Virus record (IMG/VR): IMGVR_UViG_2585427764_000006
Direction: 5' to 3' (one strand)
DNA: 5,513 bases
Origin: a virus
Lineage: Duplodnaviria > Heunggongvirae > Uroviricota > Caudoviricetes
This document shows positions 1 through 5,513 of this stretch, piece by piece. The translations under genes and the position numbers were made by a program. Numbering within the stretch: position 1 is the stretch's first letter; each line of letters starts with the position of its first letter. The notes beneath the pieces are model-generated. The model did not search any database and was not told the DNA's origin. It was given only the letters and a program-made list of their open reading frames with translations.

Positions 1-2
1 CG

Positions 3-320
3 GCAAAAGCGTTCGCATACCTGCTGAAACAGTGGGATGCACTGAACGTGTACTGCAGTAATGGCTGGGTGGAAATCGACAACAACATCGCAGAGAACGC
101 CTTACGGGGAGTGGCCGTAGGCCGGAAAAACTGGATGTTCGCGGGTTCCGACAGCGGTGGTGAACATGCGGCGGTGTTGTACTCGCTGATCGGCACATGC
201 CGTCTGAACAATGTGGAGCCAGAAAAGTGGCTGCGTTACGTCATTGAACATATCCAGGACTGGCCGGCAAACCGGGTACGCGATCTGTTGCCCTGGAAAG
301 TTGATCTGAGCTCTCAGTAA
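3..320 (+). CDS. IS66-family transposase, C-terminal fragment (5' end outside window)
   Basis: The frame is open from position 3 (AKAFAYLLKQWDALNVYCSNGWVEIDNNIAENALRGVAVGRKNWMFAGSDSGGEHAAVLYSLIGTCRLNNVEPEKWLRYV...). The EIDNN-AE-ALR...GRKNW-FAGS motif block is, from memory, characteristic of the C-terminus of IS66-family DDE transposases. The GTG at 48 in the ORF track is not the true start. Confidence 0.85.
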   Translation, partial: AKAFAYLLKQWDALNVYCSNGWVEIDNNIAENALRGVAVGRKNWMFAGSDSGGEHAAVLYSLIGTCRLNNVEPEKWLRYVIEHIQDWPANRVRDLLPWKVDLSSQ

Positions 321-321
321 A

Positions 322-350
322 TATCAATACGGTTCTGACGAGTCGCTTAC
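322..350 (-). repeat. Candidate IS66 terminal inverted repeat (right end)
   Basis: The minus strand reads 5'-GTAAGCGACTCGTCAGAACCGTATTGATAT from position 350. The exact IR length cannot be fixed without the left end. Confidence 0.5.
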
Positions 351-1999: not shown

Positions 2000-2024
2000 T
2001 GTTCATTCCACGGACAAAAACAGA

Positions 2025-2079
2025 GAAAGGAAACGACAGAGGCCAAAAAGCCCGTTTTCAGCACCTGTCGTTTCCTTTC
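2025..2079 (-). promoter_or_regulatory. cosB terminase-binding R elements (R1/R2-like inverted pair)
   Basis: GAAAGGAAACGACAG at 2025-2039 and its exact reverse complement CTGTCGTTTCCTTTC at 2065-2079 form a perfect 15-bp inverted pair separated by 25 bp. They sit where lambda cosB R1/R2 sit relative to the Nu1 start. An R3-like copy (GAAGAACGGAAATG) is at about 2121-2138. Confidence 0.7.
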
Positions 2080-2176
2080 TTTTCAGGGGGTATTTTAAAT
2101 AAAAACATTAAGTTACAACGAAGAAGAACGGAAATGCCTTAAACCGGAAAATTTTCATAAATAGCGAAAACCCGCG

Positions 2177-2188: not shown

Positions 2189-2220
2189 CGTAACCTGTCG
2201 GATCGCCGGAAAGGACCCGC
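2189..2220 (-). promoter_or_regulatory. cosQ-containing region (packaging termination element) adjacent to cosN
   Basis: CGTAACCTGTCGGATCGCCGGAAAGGACCCGC is the reverse complement of the sequence that directly precedes cosN at the lambda right end, with apparently one substitution relative to my recollection of lambda. Confidence 0.5.
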
Positions 2221-2224
2221 AAAA

Positions 2225-2239
2225 TGATAATAATTATCA
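2225..2239. promoter_or_regulatory. Fur-box-like 7-1-7 palindrome (candidate iron-responsive operator)
   Basis: TGATAATAATTATCA is a perfect inverted repeat, TGATAAT-n-ATTATCA, matching the core Fur box motif. It lies about 150 bp upstream of the DUF3950 start codon on the plus strand. Confidence 0.4.
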
Positions 2240-2387
2240 TCTGCATGTCACAACGTGCATCTACGCCATCAAACCACGTCAAATAATCAATTATGACGCA
2301 GGTATCATATTAATTGATCTGCATCAACTTAACGTAAAAACAACTTCAGACAATACAAATCAGCGACACTGAATACGGGACAACCTC

Positions 2388-2621
2388 ATGTCAACGAAGA
2401 ACAGAACCCGCAGAACAACAACCCGCAACATCCGCTTTCCTAACCAAATGATTGAACAAATTAACATCGCTCTTGATCAAAAAGGGTCCGGGAATTTCTC
2501 AGCCTGGGTCATTGAAGCCTGCCGCCGGAGACTGTGCTCAGAAAAAAGAGTTTCTCCTGAAGCAAACAAAGAAAAGAGTGACATTACTGAATTGCTCAGA
2601 AAACAGATCAGACCAGATTGA
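2388..2621 (+). CDS. Small basic protein, DUF3950 family (YnfO/YlcI-like prophage protein)
   Basis: The 77-aa ORF MSTKNRTRRTTTRNIRFPNQMIEQINIALDQKGSGNFSAWVIEACRRRL... resembles the small proteins encoded next to noh/Nu1 in E. coli cryptic prophages. Its orientation is opposite to the late genes and the local sequence is AT-rich. Confidence 0.8.
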   Translation: MSTKNRTRRTTTRNIRFPNQMIEQINIALDQKGSGNFSAWVIEACRRRLCSEKRVSPEANKEKSDITELLRKQIRPD

Positions 2622-2677
2622 AGCAATTTAGATAATCGTGCAGACTACACCCCTCATATCACATGGAAGGTACTACA

Positions 2678-3088
2678 ATGGCTCAGGTTGCCATTTTTAA
2701 ACAAATATTCAATAAAGTGCGAAATAATTTAAACTATCACTGGTTTTATTCTGAACTAAAACGTCACAATGTCTCACATTACATTTACTATTTAGCCACA
2801 GAGAATATTCATCTTGTTCTTGAAAACGATAATACGGTTTTAATAAAAGGACAGGGTAAGGTTGTAAATGTAAGATTTTCAAAAAATAAATGCCTTATAG
2901 AAGCCACCTTAAAAGGATTCAAATCAGGAGAGTTATCATTTTACGAATACAGGAAAAATCTTGCTACAGCAGGGGTTTTCAGATGGATTACAAATATCCA
3001 CGAAAACAAAAGGTATTACTATACCTTTGATAATTCATTACTCTTTACTGAGAACATTCAGAACACTACACAAATATTTCCGCACTAA
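2678..3088 (+). CDS. DUF1398 family protein (YbcV/YdfO-like prophage protein)
   Basis: The ORF track gives 2663-3088, but the second ATG at 2678 is preceded by GGAAGG with about 6 nt spacing, so [14 protein letters not shown]... is the likelier start. The C-terminal block [38 protein letters not shown] is characteristic of this family as I recall it. GC content is low, about 25-30% by eye. Confidence 0.8.
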
Positions 3089-3344
3089 ATCATAACGTCC
3101 GGTTTCTTCCGTGCCAGAACCGGACTCGCTGGCATGATGAAATATGTGTACCCGGTAACCCCGGTGTGCATCGTTTTTGATTATTCCCACACACTCGCGC
3201 AGAAGGAGTTCCCCGTCGGGCTACGGTCTCTGTTAATACGGGAATACGGCGACGATACAGCGCATGATGTGTCAGGCTTGAATACCTTTATCCTTTAAAA
3301 GGGATATCAGTTAAGTTATCCCGTGTAGGGTATAAGCCATTATC

Positions 3345-3373
3345 AAAGCCACTCTGTAGGAAGTGGCTTTTGT
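3345..3373 (+). terminator. Candidate intrinsic terminator for the plus-strand moron genes
   Basis: AAAGCCACT (3345-3353) pairs with AGTGGCTTT (3362-3370) around an 8-nt loop, followed by TTTTG. The GC core is only 6 bp, so this is weak to moderate. Confidence 0.3.
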
Positions 3374-3378
3374 AATGG

Positions 3379-3405
3379 CAATAAAAAGCCCCGCGAATGC
3401 GAGGC
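3379..3405 (-). terminator. Candidate rho-independent terminator downstream of the Rz/Rz1 lysis genes
   Basis: On the minus strand GCCTCGC-ATTC-GCGGGGC forms a 7-bp GC-rich stem (one G-U pair) followed directly by TTTTTAT. It sits about 175 bp downstream of the Rz stop. Confidence 0.45.
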
Positions 3406-3579
3406 TAAATCCTGGTATTTGTAATGACTGGCTCTTATCTCAACGCAGCCCCTTACCGCGCGCAAAATGCTCAATATCAAGCATCAGCAATGAGATGTTT
3501 AATCTGGATTCACTCCAGAAGTGAGCACCACCCTGTCTACAGAGCCAGATGTGAAGGATGATGAGTAAAATTATCGCTA

Positions 3580-4047
3580 TCATCGAAGGCATTGCGTCCT
3601 GATGTATTCCTGAAGCGTTCTCAGTGCTGTTTGGTCGCGGATAATTCCGTCCCGGATACCGAGAACGTTTCGTCCAGCAACTGGAGAGAGTTCGACGGTG
3701 GCATCATTGCCCATGCCGGAGGCGCTGGAGGTTTCGGCTGAGGATGGCACAGGGCATTTTCCTTTGACGAGCACCCGACCACCATTATCAAGCTTGCGCC
3801 GAAGAGCATCATTTTCAGCTTTCGCATCAGCTAACTCCTTCGTGTATTTATCATCGAGTGCATCAGCATCACGCTGGCGCTGCTGCATGTCAGTAATGGT
3901 GGCGTTCGCCTTCTCCAGTTCACTGGCCTTGTTATCGCGCTGTTCTTTGTAGGCGATTGCATTATCACGGTAATGATTAACAGCCCATGACAGGCAGACG
4001 ATGATGCAGATAACCAGAGCGGAGATAATCGCGGTTACCCTGCTCAT
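3580..4047 (-). CDS. Rz: Rz i-spanin (inner-membrane spanin subunit)
   Basis: [31 protein letters not shown]... matches the lambda Rz N-terminus with its single N-terminal transmembrane helix and coiled-coil region. The probable start is the ATG at 4047-4045, which overlaps the R stop as ATGA; the ORF track starts 4 codons earlier. The C-terminal third diverges from lambda Rz. Confidence 0.9.
3621..3827 (-). CDS. Rz1: Rz1 o-spanin (outer-membrane lipoprotein), embedded in the +1 frame of Rz
   Basis: [21 protein letters not shown]... has a lipobox (VVGC) followed by a proline-rich segment ([11 protein letters not shown]), and lies wholly inside Rz in another frame, the classic embedded-spanin architecture. 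Confidence 0.8.
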
Positions 4048-4541
4048 TGTTGCCCCCACAAACAGACCTCACGCTCAATCTCACGACGAGTCATCAGGCC
4101 TTTCCATTGCTTACCGCCAGCGTATGCCCAGCGACGTAGCTGGTCACATGCGCCCTTGATATCGCCCTGGTTTATTTTGCGAAGAAGAGTAGATGTTCTG
4201 AAATTGCCTGCGCCCACGTTATAGACGAACGAGTAAAGAGCGCCGCGCGTTGTTTCCGGTATATCGACTTTGATGTACGGGTTAATTTGTCTGGCTACCG
4301 TGGCAAGGTCTTTATTCAGGAGGGCTTTGCATTCTGCTTCGGTATACGTTTTACCGGGAATGATGTCTTTTCCTGTATGCCCGTGACATACAGTCCATAC
4401 GCCAACGATATCTTTGTATGGTATGTAGCTGACACCTTCCAGACCATCGTTACCACTTGGGCCAGTGATTAACACTGATGCTATAGCAATTGCTCCGCCA
4501 CCAATAGCAGCAGCAACGGCTTTTCGTAATGATGGAGGCAT
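4044..4541 (-). CDS. R: SAR endolysin (phage 21 R-type lysozyme)
   Basis: The 165-aa product has an N-terminal Gly/Ala-rich weakly hydrophobic signal-anchor-release domain ([18 protein letters not shown]), then a T4-lysozyme-like catalytic triad at E35, D44 and T50. It is near-identical to phage 21 R as recalled. The start overlaps the S stop (TAATG). Confidence 0.93.
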
Positions 4542-4756
4542 TATTCACCTCTCGCAGCCTTGCGCTTATCTTCTTTAATCTTGAAATAAAGGTTTGTCAG
4601 GTACGTCAGCAGGCCAAATACCAAGCTACCCAGCACACCTATTGCTGCCCACTGTGAGGGCGTGACTTTATCGAGCAACTGTAAAAACCAGTAGCCAGCA
4701 CTGCCTGCGGAGGTGCCGTAGGCAATGCCCGTTGTTAACTTATCCATGGATTTCAT
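4541..4756 (-). CDS. S: Pinholin (phage 21 S-type), dual-start class II holin
   Basis: The 71-aa product [26 protein letters not shown]... has the dual-start motif Met1-Lys-Ser-Met4 (antiholin and holin forms), two transmembrane segments and a charged C-terminus. A strong Shine-Dalgarno GGAGGTGAGGC lies immediately upstream. Confidence 0.93.
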
Positions 4757-5002: not shown

Positions 5003-5092
5003 GAAGGAGATCGGTGAGTAACATCGATGGAGATCGGTTCGTGTCACTTTCACAGAACCGTTTTTAAATTACCTTCACTGATCTCCTTCGGT
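5003..5092. repeat. IS21-family terminal repeat cluster
   Basis: GGAGATCGGT occurs as direct copies at 5006-5015 and 5029-5038, the first as GAAGGAGATCGGT from 5003. An inverted copy (GATCTCCTTC, reverse complement of GAAGGAGATC) lies at 5081-5090, overlapping the last istB codons. Confidence 0.5.
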
Positions 5093-5512
5093 CAACGGAG
5101 ATTGTATTTTCCGCATTGATTCTCCTTGAAGTTCGATCTTGATACTGCCATGAACCAGTCGATCTAGGATGGCATCCGCATGTGTGGAGTCTCCGATCAT
5201 TTTGTACCAGTTTTCCACCGGCAACTGGCTCACTACGATGATTGAGCCTCGTTGGTACATCAGATCCACTATTTCCAGCAGGTCGCTACGCTGTTCTGAT
5301 GAGAGAGGTTCCAGCCCCCAGTCATCCAGAAGCAGCAGATCGCTATTATTCAGCCTGGTCAAAAGTTTGCTGTATCTTCCATCAGCATGCCCCTGATAGC
5401 ACTGTTCCATCAGCGCTTTAAGGCGATAATAGTAGACCTTGTATCCCTGTCGGCAGGCATTATGACCAAGTGCACATGCCAGGAACGTTTTACCGCTGCC
5501 GGTGGCCCCGGT
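5075..5512 (-). CDS. istB: IS21-family IstB ATP-binding helper protein, C-terminal portion (5' end outside window)
   Basis: The frame is open to the window edge: TGATGSGKTFLACALGHNACRQGYKVYYYRLKALMEQCYQ... contains a Walker A P-loop (GATGSGKT), then a Walker B-like LLLLDDWG. The ORF track shows only the part from the internal Met at 5410. Confidence 0.88.
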   Translation of the reverse strand, partial: TGATGSGKTFLACALGHNACRQGYKVYYYRLKALMEQCYQGHADGRYSKLLTRLNNSDLLLLDDWGLEPLSSEQRSDLLEIVDLMYQRGSIIVVSQLPVENWYKMIGDSTHADAILDRLVHGSIKIELQGESMRKIQSPLTEGDQ

Positions 5513-5513
5513 C

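What the first reader, a model, noticed from the sequence alone, without database searches (positions are those of the whole stretch)
3089..3579. About 490-bp non-coding spacer with convergent terminator-like hairpins where lambda carries bor
Between the DUF1398 stop and the Rz stop there is no ORF of 60 aa or more on either strand. The region contains a 10-bp hairpin right after the DUF1398 stop (GTCCGGTTTCT...AGAACCGGAC, about 3110-3146), a plus-strand stem-loop with a T-tract (3345-3373) and a minus-strand GC stem with TTTTTAT (3379-3405), which together look like a bidirectional termination zone for the two convergent units. In lambda the equivalent interval holds the bor lipoprotein gene on the opposite strand, and no bor-like lipoprotein ORF is present here. 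A structured non-coding RNA or a very small protein is possible but unsupported.
Basis: partly seen in the sequence, partly recalled or inferred. Interest (0 to 1): 0.4.

Follow-up and report, generated by a model that had tools for sequence, protein, structure and literature searches.

The report
Empty accessory-gene slot after phage lysis genes
The 490-bp gap is an ordinary, mostly non-coding backbone piece of a defective lambda-like prophage: a terminator and a conserved RNA hairpin on the late-gene strand flank an empty slot where related phages carry extra genes, and where lambda carries bor.

Summary
The features are real, but the reading needs correcting.

- **ORFs.** No ORF of 60 aa or more exists. 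A 50-aa ORF (3592..3440, minus) overlaps the Rz stop. It is annotated in RefSeq, Sf6 (gene 65) and PHROGs, but its substitutions look neutral.
- **Terminator.** The minus-strand GC stem with a U-run (3406-3379) is a convincing intrinsic terminator. P22 has a homologue after its Rz gene.
- **The "plus-strand" stem-loop.** This hairpin (3336-3379) is really a late (minus) strand, two-tier hairpin with strong covariation. The two hairpins are therefore tandem, not convergent.
- **The slot.** Only 6 nt separate them here. In related phages the same junction holds 0.2-1.3 kb of late-strand genes (KilA-N, Rha, Sf6 gp66, T5orf172, Tad2-like), so this window has the empty slot.
- **Homology to lambda.** Bases 3089-3264 match lambda's spacer between its DUF1398 gene and bor. 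Lambda's bor cassette begins exactly where the homology stops. No bor remnant is present.
- **The shared core.** A 108-bp core (3157-3264) occurs in about 430 lambdoid phage records. It diverges about as fast as neighbouring third codon positions, does not fold unusually well and codes in no frame.

Verdict: ordinary mosaic junction DNA, of low interest.

The parts
3097..3125 (.). Hairpin 1: GTCCGGTT(T)CT ... AGAACCGGAC, with no U-run on either strand. It marks the left edge of the conserved non-coding module in phages that lack DUF1398.
   Evidence: Inverted repeat I5. Energy -13.4 kcal/mol on the plus strand and -14.8 on the minus, z about -2.5 to -2.8. Kept in lambda and DLP12; phage Ayreon has GTCCTG/CAGGAC, one compensatory pair. 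Recurrent homology breakpoint at 3097.
3134..3298 (+). 54-aa ORF, annotated only in phage Kati. Judged not to be a gene.
   Evidence: The frame is broken in lambda and DLP12 while nucleotide homology continues. Start and end differ between lineages. Across the core, 21 synonymous against 55 non-synonymous variants (observed synonymous fraction 0.28, expected 0.29). No Pfam or PHROG hit.
3157..3264 (-). Core: a 108-bp non-coding segment shared by lambda (46866-46981), DLP12, Stx phages and about 430 phage records, with varying flanks on both sides. Function unknown, possibly none.
   Evidence: Breakpoint map. 432 phage records, one copy each, mostly unannotated. Homology to lambda and DLP12 ends at 3264. 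Identity to lambda is 73% against 75% at DUF1398 third codon positions. Folding z-score about 0 on both strands. Covariation is weak: 99.0% paired against 98.8% in shuffles. No coding signal in any of six frames.
3286..3335 (-). Nearly invariant 50-nt block downstream (in the late sense) of hairpin 2. It contains small GGGATA/TATCCC inverted repeats. Function unknown.
   Evidence: 35 unique sequences from 186 loci show very few changes, although hairpin 2 stems and the downstream sequence differ. Inverted repeat I2. Modest fold, z about -2.2.
3336..3379 (-). Hairpin 2: a two-tier late-strand RNA hairpin with a 7-bp outer stem, a 2x2 internal loop (CA/GA) and a 10-bp inner stem. It marks the 3' end of the accessory-gene slot.
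   Evidence: -20.7 kcal/mol, z -6.8 on the minus strand. All 36 variants from 189 loci take the same shape. 6 pairs have compensatory changes; 98.1% paired against 91.1% in shuffles; 0 of 500 shuffles reach it. Some variants pair only on the minus strand. Annotated as a terminator in phage Ayreon. In P22 it follows rha, and the sncRNA P22G ends in its 5' arm.
3377..3382 (-). Empty accessory-gene slot: the 6-nt junction between the terminator and hairpin 2.
   Evidence: 103 loci have this 6-nt junction. Others carry 205-1330 bp here, with late-strand ORFs identified as KilA-N, Rha/ORF11CD3, T5orf172/MUG113, Sf6 gp66/N4 gp49 and Tad2-like.
3379..3406 (-). Intrinsic terminator of the lysis cassette: AGCCUCGCAUUCGCGGGGCU followed by UUUUUAUU.
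   Evidence: Terminator scan. -14.7 kcal/mol, z -2.96. Most stem variants among 151 loci are C-to-U changes that keep G.U pairs on the minus strand. P22 has the homologue GCCTCGCAGATGCGGGGCGTTTTTGT about 45 nt after gene 15.
3440..3592 (-). ORF50: a 50-aa ORF ([16 protein letters not shown]...) whose codon-4 ATG overlaps the Rz TGA as ATGA. It belongs to the Sf6 gene 65 / ECs0822 / WP_001139678.1 / phrog_11822 family. Coding status unproven.
   Evidence: phrog_11822 E 1.8e-36. Homologues are almost all from E. coli, at 62% identity or more. 16 synonymous, 31 non-synonymous and 3 stop variants (observed synonymous fraction 0.32, expected 0.27, p = 0.27). Intact in 17 of 17 loci sampled without regard to it.

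Best explanation
**What it is.** The interval is backbone DNA of a lambdoid late operon, best read on the minus (late) strand. It runs from the lysis cassette towards cos and the terminase genes.

**Order on the late strand.**
1. The Rz stop.
2. A short ORF of doubtful coding value (ORF50).
3. An intrinsic terminator (3406-3379).
4. A 6-nt junction that is an empty docking site for accessory late-strand genes.
5. A conserved two-tier RNA hairpin (3379-3336) that closes that slot.
6. About 240 nt of conserved non-coding sequence (3335-3097) that this prophage shares with lambda and Stx phages.

**Neighbouring unit.** The AT-rich YnfO-DUF1398 unit to the left is an opposite-strand insert of the same kind as lambda's p78 and bor. 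Lambda's bor cassette, with its own promoter, occupies the position of 3265-3579.

**How it probably works (inferred, not shown).** In a lysogen, the terminator and hairpin stop or trim RNA made by polymerase that has not been modified by Q. This keeps stray late-strand transcription from running antisense into the DUF1398 unit, and gives the lysis and accessory messages stable 3' ends. During lytic growth, Q-modified polymerase reads through both into the terminase genes, as in lambda.

**In this strain.** The prophage is defective, with IS66 in the terminase gene and IS21 upstream of the holin gene, so the elements are probably relics.
For: **Shown**
- Gene context.
- The spacer is mosaic. 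3383-3700 and 3287-3376 are contiguous here but separated by inserts in other phages.
- The inserts carry late-strand genes of known accessory families.
- Terminator geometry and structure-preserving variation, with a homologous terminator after P22 gene 15.
- Hairpin 2 covaries and prefers the minus strand.
- Phage Ayreon annotates hairpin 2 as a late-strand terminator.
- In P22, small-RNA reads (P22G) run from the rha 3' end into this hairpin (PMC13397905).
- 3089-3264 is 82-83% identical, as part of the 2605-3264 match, to lambda and DLP12 DNA downstream of their DUF1398 genes. Homology stops where the AT-rich bor cassette starts.
- GC content is 51-57% in 3090-3270 against 30-36% in DUF1398, which fits backbone DNA next to an insert.

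**Inferred from textbook lambda biology (my own knowledge)**
- Q-modified polymerase from pR' reads through terminators across the lysis genes and cos into Nu1 and A.
Against: - No transcript data exist for this sequence. Termination, read-through and processing are all inferred.
- Hairpin 2 has only a weak U-run on the late strand (CUUAUACC), so it may not terminate at all.
- The P22G 3' end falls in the 5' arm, near the loop, which could be a sequencing artefact.
- The persistent presence of the core and the invariant block next to changing flanks is not explained by this account. They may have a function I did not find.
- ORF50 stays open in nearly all copies, so 'non-coding' may be wrong for 3440-3592.
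Confidence: 0.6

Rival explanations
1. Two convergent terminators form a bidirectional termination zone: the 3345-3373 stem-loop ends the plus-strand DUF1398 transcript and the 3406-3387 stem ends the minus-strand lysis transcript.
For: - In this window's variant the inner stem GCCACT/AGTGGC is followed on the plus strand by TTTTGTAA and preceded by AAA, which is the symmetric layout of bidirectional terminators.
- The plus-strand fold is -13.6 kcal/mol, z -2.7.
- No other terminator-like site follows DUF1398 on the plus strand.
Against: - The hairpin is stronger on the minus strand (-20.7 kcal/mol, z -6.8).
- Natural variants (GCCAUUC, GCCUAUC/GGUGGGU, GUUAUUG/CAAUGGC) keep pairing only through G.U on the minus strand. 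One class folds at -12.5 against -4.3, another at about -32 against -20.
- The element occurs in P22 and Sf6 downstream of late-strand genes, with no DUF1398 nearby.
- The scan tool did not call it a terminator on either strand.
Confidence: 0.25
2. ORF50 (3592..3440) is a real, translationally coupled small membrane protein of the lysis cassette. On this reading about a third of the 'spacer' is coding.
For: - ATGA overlap of its fourth codon with the Rz stop, and AGGA 4 nt upstream of the first ATG.
- A hydrophobic N-terminus.
- A full-length match to phrog_11822 (E 1.8e-36).
- Annotated in RefSeq and in Sf6 as gene 65.
- Open in 168 of 176 copies and in 17 of 17 copies sampled without regard to it.
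- Two loci replace everything after codon 8 with a different, also hydrophobic, 37-aa ORF.
- The module 3418-3615 moves between phages with different Rz genes.
Against: - The substitution pattern is indistinguishable from neutral. There are 16 synonymous, 31 non-synonymous and 3 stop variants (synonymous fraction 0.32 against 0.27 expected, p = 0.27). Common variants give 9 against 19.
- pN/pS is 0.67, no better than a shifted frame at 0.44.
- No homologue below 62% identity, and almost none outside E. coli.
- No Pfam family.
- P22 has only about 45 nt between Rz and the same terminator.
- By my own estimate, a 50-codon open frame has roughly a 9% chance per frame.
Confidence: 0.3
3. The late-strand RNA of 3379-3150 (hairpin 2, the invariant block and the core) is a functional structured RNA. 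It could be an RNase III-type processing and stabilising site, or the source of a 3'UTR-derived small RNA, that punctuates the late operon.
For: - Hairpin 2 has about 17 bp in two tiers around a conserved 2x2 internal loop and covaries.
- RNAalifold energy for the whole module is -65.8 on the minus strand against -46.4 on the plus.
- The single-sequence z-score is -3.3 on the minus strand against -2.3 on the plus.
- Common variants in the core's helices are wobble-compatible only on the minus strand.
- P22 infection yields small RNAs next to the homologous hairpin.
Against: - The core alone folds no better than shuffles (z 0.06).
- Its covariation is marginal, with 2 pairs and 4 cells.
- It diverges from lambda at about the rate of third codon positions.
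- No Rfam family matches. The best hit, STnc560, scores 19.9 bits against a threshold of 55, and that family is the MgrR locus of Salmonella.
- The invariant block shows no variation from which structure could be tested.
Confidence: 0.18
4. The interval is a decayed remnant of bor or of another gene that once filled the gap.
For: Lambda and DLP12 carry bor in this position. Related phages carry other genes at the 3377-3382 junction.
Against: - tblastn of lambda Bor, BorD and all 203 ORFs found in the inserts of related phages gives no meaningful match against 3060-3620.
- The best Bor hit in the whole window has E = 17. The only low E-values come from spurious ORFs that run into the shared flanks.
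- No frame shows a coding signature.
- The same empty junction recurs in 103 loci, and the full spacer is covered at 80% or more in 1,424 complete E. coli genomes.
Confidence: 0.03

Closest known systems
Phage lambda right arm, Rz - bor - lambdap78 (lambda 45966-47575), and the same region of the E. coli K-12 cryptic prophage DLP12 (rzpD - borD - ybcV)
   Same: - Same layout: lysis cassette on the late strand, then opposite-strand genes, then cos and Nu1.
- Window 2605-3264 is 82-83% identical to lambda and DLP12 across the DUF1398 gene and the 175 bp after it, including hairpin 1 and the core.
   Different: - Lambda and DLP12 have the AT-rich bor cassette between the core and Rz, with only 31 nt from the bor stop to the Rz stop.
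- That cassette carries a TGTTTA-N5-TGTTTA repeat upstream of bor. I recognise this from memory as a PhoP box.
- This window instead has 3265-3579: the invariant block, hairpin 2, the terminator and ORF50. None of these is in lambda.
Phage P22 late region, gene 15 (Rz) - terminator - rha - hairpin - orf25, with the reported small RNAs P22F and P22G (PMC13397905)
   Same: - A homologous intrinsic terminator follows Rz, and a homologous two-tier hairpin sits with the same flanking GGCTTATACC.
- The slot between them is filled by rha in P22.
- P22G ends in the 5' arm of the hairpin.
   Different: - The slot is empty here.
- P22 has no ORF50 and no core.
- The inner stem sequence differs, with compensatory changes.
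- P22 packages by pac, not cos.
Morons: accessory gene cassettes inserted between backbone genes of lambdoid phages, as described for HK97 and HK022 (my own knowledge)
   Same: - A recurrent insertion point bounded by hairpins.
- Inserted genes of varied and unrelated families.
- A compositional contrast between inserts and backbone.
   Different: - Classical morons bring their own promoter and terminator and are often expressed from the prophage.
- Here the slot genes all lie on the late strand between two backbone hairpins, and in this window the slot holds nothing.
Sf6 gene 65 / O157 Sakai ECs0822 / phrog_11822 small hypothetical protein
   Same: ORF50 matches the whole 50-residue profile (E 1.8e-36) and occupies the same position overlapping the Rz stop.
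   Different: The family has no demonstrated product or function. My substitution analysis finds no purifying selection.
RNase III processing hairpins of phage T7 polycistronic mRNAs, such as R1.1 (my own knowledge; a functional analogy only)
   Same: A bipartite stem of about 17-20 bp with an internal loop, placed between cistrons of a long phage transcript, lacking a U-run.
   Different: There is no sequence relationship and no cleavage data. The internal loop is symmetric (2x2), whereas T7 sites are usually asymmetric.

Membership tests
Intrinsic (Rho-independent) terminator: element at 3406-3379, minus strand | G+C-rich stem of 5-14 bp with a loop of 3-8 nt | tested here: met
   8 pairs, 6 of them G-C, with a loop of 4. 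-14.7 kcal/mol, z -2.96.
Intrinsic (Rho-independent) terminator: element at 3406-3379, minus strand | A U-rich run immediately 3' of the stem | tested here: met
   UUUUUAUU directly after the stem.
Intrinsic (Rho-independent) terminator: element at 3406-3379, minus strand | Lies downstream of a gene on the same strand, with its structure kept in relatives | tested here: met
   It lies 174 nt after the Rz stop and 34 nt after the ORF50 stop. Most stem variants are C-to-U changes giving G.U pairs on the minus strand. P22 has a homologue after gene 15.
Intrinsic (Rho-independent) terminator: element at 3406-3379, minus strand | Transcripts actually end there | not testable with these tools
   No transcript data are available for this sequence.
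Intrinsic terminator: hairpin 2 at 3336-3379 | A stable stem conserved in relatives | tested here: met
   -20.7 kcal/mol, z -6.8 on the minus strand. 6 covarying pairs; 0 of 500 shuffles reach the observed score.
Intrinsic terminator: hairpin 2 at 3336-3379 | A U-rich run immediately 3' of the stem on the strand where the structure is selected | tested here: not met
   The late-strand tail is CUUAUACC, with 3 U in 8, in all classes. Only the plus strand of this window's variant has UUUUGUAA after the inner stem. The scan tool called it on neither strand.
bor lipoprotein gene (lambda Bor / BorD) | An ORF of about 97 aa with a lipoprotein signal, similar to Bor | tested here: not met
   The best tblastn hit of lambda Bor in the whole window has E = 17. 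No ORF of 60 aa or more is present.
phrog_11822 / Sf6 gene 65 small protein (ORF50) | Full-length sequence match to the family | tested here: met
   E 1.8e-36 over residues 1-50 of 50.
phrog_11822 / Sf6 gene 65 small protein (ORF50) | Evidence that the ORF evolves as a protein, with an excess of synonymous change | tested here: not met
   16 synonymous, 31 non-synonymous and 3 stop variants. Synonymous fraction 0.32 against 0.27 expected, p = 0.27. pN/pS 0.67.
phrog_11822 / Sf6 gene 65 small protein (ORF50) | Translation or a phenotype demonstrated | not testable with these tools
   No paper in the library mentions ECs0822.
Known Rfam small RNA (best candidate STnc560) | Score at or above the family's gathering threshold | tested here: not met
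   19.9 bits against a threshold of 55. STnc560 lies between ydeI and ydeE in Salmonella, with STnc570/yneM (PMC2515195). I recognise this from memory as the MgrR locus, which is unrelated to phage.
Moron / accessory-gene cassette | A gene present between the bounding hairpins | tested here: not met
   Only 6 nt lie between the terminator and hairpin 2 here. Relatives carry 205-1330 bp with KilA-N, Rha, gp66, T5orf172 or Tad2-like genes.
RNase III processing site (considered for hairpin 2) | About two helical turns of duplex, often interrupted by an internal loop | tested here: inconclusive
   The geometry fits: 7 bp, a 2x2 loop and 10 bp. That geometry is not specific to RNase III sites.
RNase III processing site (considered for hairpin 2) | rnc-dependent cleavage | not testable with these tools
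   The only hint is that P22G ends in the 5' arm of the P22 homologue, near the loop.

The most novel reading that the evidence does not exclude
The late-strand module of hairpin 2 (with its conserved 2x2 internal loop), the nearly invariant 50-nt block and the 108-nt core may be a so far undescribed RNA element of lambdoid late operons. It could be a processing or stabilising site, or the source of a 3'UTR-derived small RNA like P22G. It would mark the boundary of a hotspot where phages swap accessory and anti-defence genes. A second possibility is that ORF50 is a small lysis-associated membrane protein.
Probability: 0.2. Interest if true: 0.5.

Novelty: new member of a known kind. Interest (0 to 1): 0.22.

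Why it matters
**Practical uses**
- The two hairpins give precise landmarks for an insertion hotspot between the lysis and packaging genes of lambdoid and P22-like phages.
- In relatives this hotspot holds Rha and KilA-N regulators, a T5orf172 protein, Sf6 gp66 and a Tad2-like (anti-Thoeris) protein.
- Scanning for the terminator and hairpin pair would find such cargo, or empty sites, in prophages.

**Annotation problems flagged**
- ORF50.
- The 54-aa ORF of phage Kati.
- P22 orf25, which starts in the loop region of hairpin 2.
- A 67-aa ORF in 933W-like phages that starts inside the core.

**If the conserved late-strand RNA proved functional**
- It would add a post-transcriptional layer to lambda late gene expression, which has been studied for decades without one at this position.

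Tried and rejected
1. **Rfam.** The whole window and the spacer alone gave only sub-threshold hits. The best, STnc560, is a chromosomal Salmonella sRNA locus (between ydeI and ydeE) with no phage link. The miRNA hits at 2019-2085 are the cosB inverted repeat.
2. **Known prophage small RNAs.** PasA-D, STnc100, AgvB and AsxR lie near Q and the holin gene or elsewhere, not after Rz. None matched here.
3. **The 54-aa ORF.** Rejected because of frameshifts in lambda and DLP12, no coding signature and no family match.
4. **Bor or slot-gene remnant.** Rejected.
5. **Promoter inside the spacer.** The scan finds only a weak 9-of-12 match on the minus strand at 3117-3089, and counts equal the shuffled expectation. 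My hand inspection of the core and the invariant block found no convincing -35/-10 pair.
6. **Rho-utilisation site on the plus strand of the core.** There is no C-over-G bias; skew is about 0.
7. **The core as a structured RNA.** Helices exist, and common variants fit the minus strand. But the z-score is 0, covariation is marginal, and the divergence rate matches third codon positions. Left as a low-probability reading.
9. **Literature.** Searches on the lambda region, DUF1398 and ECs0822 gave nothing useful. The lambda review I tried by PMC id is not held.
Full report
**Context**

The window is a defective lambda-like prophage of E. coli. From left to right it holds:
- the end of an IS66 transposase (48-320, +);
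- a truncated large terminase gene gpA (241-1479, -);
- Nu1 (1454-1999, -) and a lambda-type cos region;
- a YlcI/YnfO DUF3950 gene (2388-2621, +) and a DUF1398 gene (2663-3088, +);
- the spacer in question;
- Rz and Rz1 (3580-4059 and 3621-3827, -), a lysozyme gene (4044-4541, -) and a phage-21-type holin gene (4541-4756, -);
- IS21 istB (5075 onwards, -).

Late transcription therefore runs on the minus strand, from holin through Rz, across the spacer and cos, into Nu1. That direction is an inference from lambda.

The 491-bp spacer occurs at 80% coverage or more in 1,424 of 5,426 complete E. coli genomes, and at 100% identity in many of them. It is 99.6% identical in phage Kati.

**Checking the observation**

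- No ORF of 60 aa or more exists in 3089-3579.
- The three hairpins are real, and each folds better than shuffled sequence.
  - Hairpin 1 has z about -2.8.
  - Hairpin 2 has z -2.7 on the plus strand and -6.8 on the minus strand.
  - The terminator stem has z -3.0.
- Hairpin 1 lies at 3097-3125, not at about 3110-3146.
- The consensus scan calls only the minus-strand site 3406-3387 plus TTTTTATT. It finds no general excess of terminator-like sites.
It overlaps the Rz stop and is annotated in RefSeq as WP_001139678.1 and in Sf6 as gene 65. It matches phrog_11822 end to end.

**The spacer is a mosaic**

BLAST of the spacer against 180 related loci shows that 3383-3700 and 3287-3376 abut here but are separated elsewhere.
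- A systematic count found the 6-nt junction of this window in 103 loci.
- Other loci carry inserts of 205-1330 bp at the same point.
- All sizeable ORFs in those inserts lie on the late strand.
- They belong to KilA-N, Rha/ORF11CD3, T5orf172/MUG113, Sf6 gp66/N4 gp49 and Tad2-like families.

The window therefore has the empty form of an accessory-gene slot. On the Rz side the slot is bounded by the terminator and on the far side by hairpin 2.

**The terminator**

- AGCCUCGCAUUCGCGGGGCU plus UUUUUAUU has textbook geometry.
- Among 151 loci, most of its stem variants are C-to-U changes that keep G.U pairs on the minus strand and weaken the plus-strand fold.
- P22 has a clearly homologous GCCTCGCAGATGCGGGGCGTTTTTGT about 45 nt after its Rz gene.

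**Hairpin 2**

- Anchoring on the conserved GGCTTATACC downstream, 36 distinct versions from 189 loci all fold into one shape on the late strand. The shape is a 7-bp outer stem, a 2x2 internal loop (CA/GA), a 9-10-bp inner stem and a loop.
- At least three unrelated inner-stem sequences exist: AAAGCCACUU/GAGUGGCUUU, GAGACCAUUC/GAGUGGUCUC and AAGCCCAUC/GGUGGGCUU.
- On a MAFFT alignment of 25 versions, six pairs show compensatory changes. Pairing is 98.1% of cells against 91.1% in shuffles. None of 500 shuffles reaches the observed covariation.
- Several versions pair only through G.U on the minus strand. One folds at -12.5 against -4.3 kcal/mol, and the P22-type at about -32 against -20.
- Phage Ayreon's authors annotated this hairpin as a terminator on the late strand.
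- In P22 it follows rha. A 2026 small-RNA study lists a 204-nt species, P22G, running from the rha 3' end into the 5' arm of this hairpin (PMC13397905).
- The late-strand tail, CUUAUACC, is a poor U-run. The element may be a 3' stabilising or processing hairpin rather than a terminator.
- In this window's version the plus strand reads stem plus UUUUGUAA, so a secondary plus-strand role cannot be ruled out.

**Relation to lambda and bor**

- In lambda and DLP12 the order is Rz, then bor, then a DUF1398 gene (lambdap78 or ybcV), with bor and the DUF1398 gene on the opposite strand.
- Window 2605-3264 aligns at 82-83% with both, through DUF1398 and 175 bp beyond its stop.
- Homology ends at 3264. 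From there lambda and DLP12 continue with an AT-rich stretch that carries TGTTTAGGGTTTGTTTA, and then bor. From memory I recognise that repeat as a PhoP box.
- The bor cassette thus replaces what is 3265-3579 here.
- tblastn with Bor, BorD and all insert ORFs finds no remnant in the spacer.

**The core, 3157-3264**

- Across 142 unique sequences, this 108-bp stretch is the part common to all. Recurrent breakpoints fall at 3053, 3097, 3146, 3150 and 3157 on the left, and at 3264-3266, 3292, 3354 and 3379-3380 on the right.
- It is present once in each of 432 phage records and is mostly unannotated.
- I tested whether it is functional, with these results:
  - Minus-strand helices are suggested by RNAalifold (-22 against -1.9 kcal/mol on the plus strand). 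Common variants in them are wobble-compatible only on the minus strand.
  - The single sequence folds no better than shuffles (z 0.06 and 0.04).
  - Covariation is marginal.
  - Identity to lambda is 73%, the same as at third codon positions of the adjacent gene (75%).
  - No reading frame shows excess synonymous change.
  - Part of its apparent invariance comes from the pattern I used to fetch loci.
- I regard it as inherited backbone DNA with no demonstrated function.
- Its GC content of 51-57%, against 30-36% in DUF1398, fits backbone DNA next to an insert.

**Small ORFs**

- *The 54-aa plus-strand ORF.* It is frameshifted in lambda and DLP12 while nucleotide homology continues. Its ends differ between lineages. 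It shows no coding signature.
- *ORF50, points in its favour.* It has an ATGA overlap with the Rz stop. It stays open in 168 of 176 copies, and in 17 of 17 sampled without regard to it.
- *ORF50, points against.* Its 50 variant alleles split 16 synonymous, 31 non-synonymous and 3 stop. The synonymous fraction is 0.32 against 0.27 expected (p = 0.27). Common variants split 9 against 19. Homologues are almost all from E. coli, and none falls below 62% identity.
- Its coding status is unproven. I give it about 0.3.

**Mechanism**

*Shown:* the anatomy, the conservation, the strand preference and the empty-slot relationship.

*Inferred from lambda biology:*
- In the prophage state the terminator, and perhaps hairpin 2, stop or trim unmodified late-strand transcription before it runs antisense into the DUF1398-YnfO unit.
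- They also give upstream messages stable 3' ends.
- After induction, Q-modified polymerase reads through into the terminase genes.
- In this strain IS66 and IS21 have broken the prophage, so the elements are probably inert.

**Comparison and novelty**

- The closest known arrangements are lambda's Rz-bor-p78 region and P22's gene 15-rha region.
- The terminator passes every sequence test for an intrinsic terminator.
- Hairpin 2 fails the U-run test on the strand where it is selected.
- bor membership fails.
- ORF50 matches its family by sequence but fails the selection test.
- Nothing here is a new kind of element. The finding is a new, clearly delimited example of a lambdoid insertion slot in its empty state.
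- Two loose ends remain: the invariant block with the core, and ORF50.

**Dead ends**

- Rfam, including the chance STnc560 hit.
- Known prophage small RNAs, which lie elsewhere.
- Promoter and rut-site searches.
- A wasted genome-contig scan with too short a pattern.
- Uninformative literature searches.

Noticed in passing
window 2019-2085 and about 2180-2195: A lambda-type cos region lies here. Window 2189-2550 is 94.8% identical to the right end of lambda. The long inverted repeat at 2019-2085 drew chance miRNA hits in Rfam. From memory, it looks like the terminase-binding cosB repeat upstream of Nu1.
   Followed up: partly
window 1-345 and 5075-5513: The prophage is defective. An IS66 transposase end abuts a gpA terminase gene cut early in its nuclease domain (positions 2-59 of 294). 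An IS21 istB gene lies upstream of the holin gene, where Q and the late promoter would be expected.
   Followed up: partly
related loci, e.g. L073 and L062 (insert between the terminator and hairpin 2): One cargo of the slot in related phages is a 159-aa protein with a Tad2-like (Thoeris anti-defence 2) domain (E 6e-22). Others are KilA-N, Rha/ORF11CD3, T5orf172/MUG113 and Sf6 gp66. The slot may be a place to look for anti-defence genes.
   Followed up: partly
L430 (phage P22) 1330-1407: The annotated P22 orf25 starts at the ATG in the loop region of the conserved hairpin 2 (ATGAGTGGCCTCGATAATGGC). It is probably not a gene.
   Followed up: no
L306/L307 (933W-like Stx phages) 2371-2574: A 67-aa late-strand ORF starting inside the core is annotated as a hypothetical protein. 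In the RefSeq record of phage P27 it is called an 'Rz-like spanin'. Other lineages have a different frame and early stops there, so it looks like a mis-annotation.
   Followed up: partly
L239 and L302, downstream of Rz: These two loci share only the first 8 codons of ORF50 (MPSMIAII). They then continue with an unrelated, also hydrophobic, 37-aa ORF (FPLSFICVILVSF...). This is the one hint that a small membrane peptide after Rz might be selected for.
   Followed up: no
L184 (lambda) about 1790-1810 and L185 (DLP12), upstream of bor: The direct repeat TGTTTAGGGTTTGTTTA lies about 60-75 nt upstream of the bor start in both, just outside the region shared with this window. From memory it fits the PhoP box reported for borD.
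   Followed up: no
window 2663-3088 and lambda lambdap78: The DUF1398 protein is labelled 'head protein' in PHROGs (phrog_413) and in the lambda RefSeq record. Yet it lies on the opposite strand to the late operon, in an AT-rich insert. The label looks doubtful.
   Followed up: no
window 3615: There is a recurrent homology breakpoint 35 nt upstream of the Rz stop. The module 3418-3615 (the Rz 3' end plus ORF50) is shared at about 96% identity by phages whose Rz genes are otherwise unrelated, such as Sf6.
   Followed up: no
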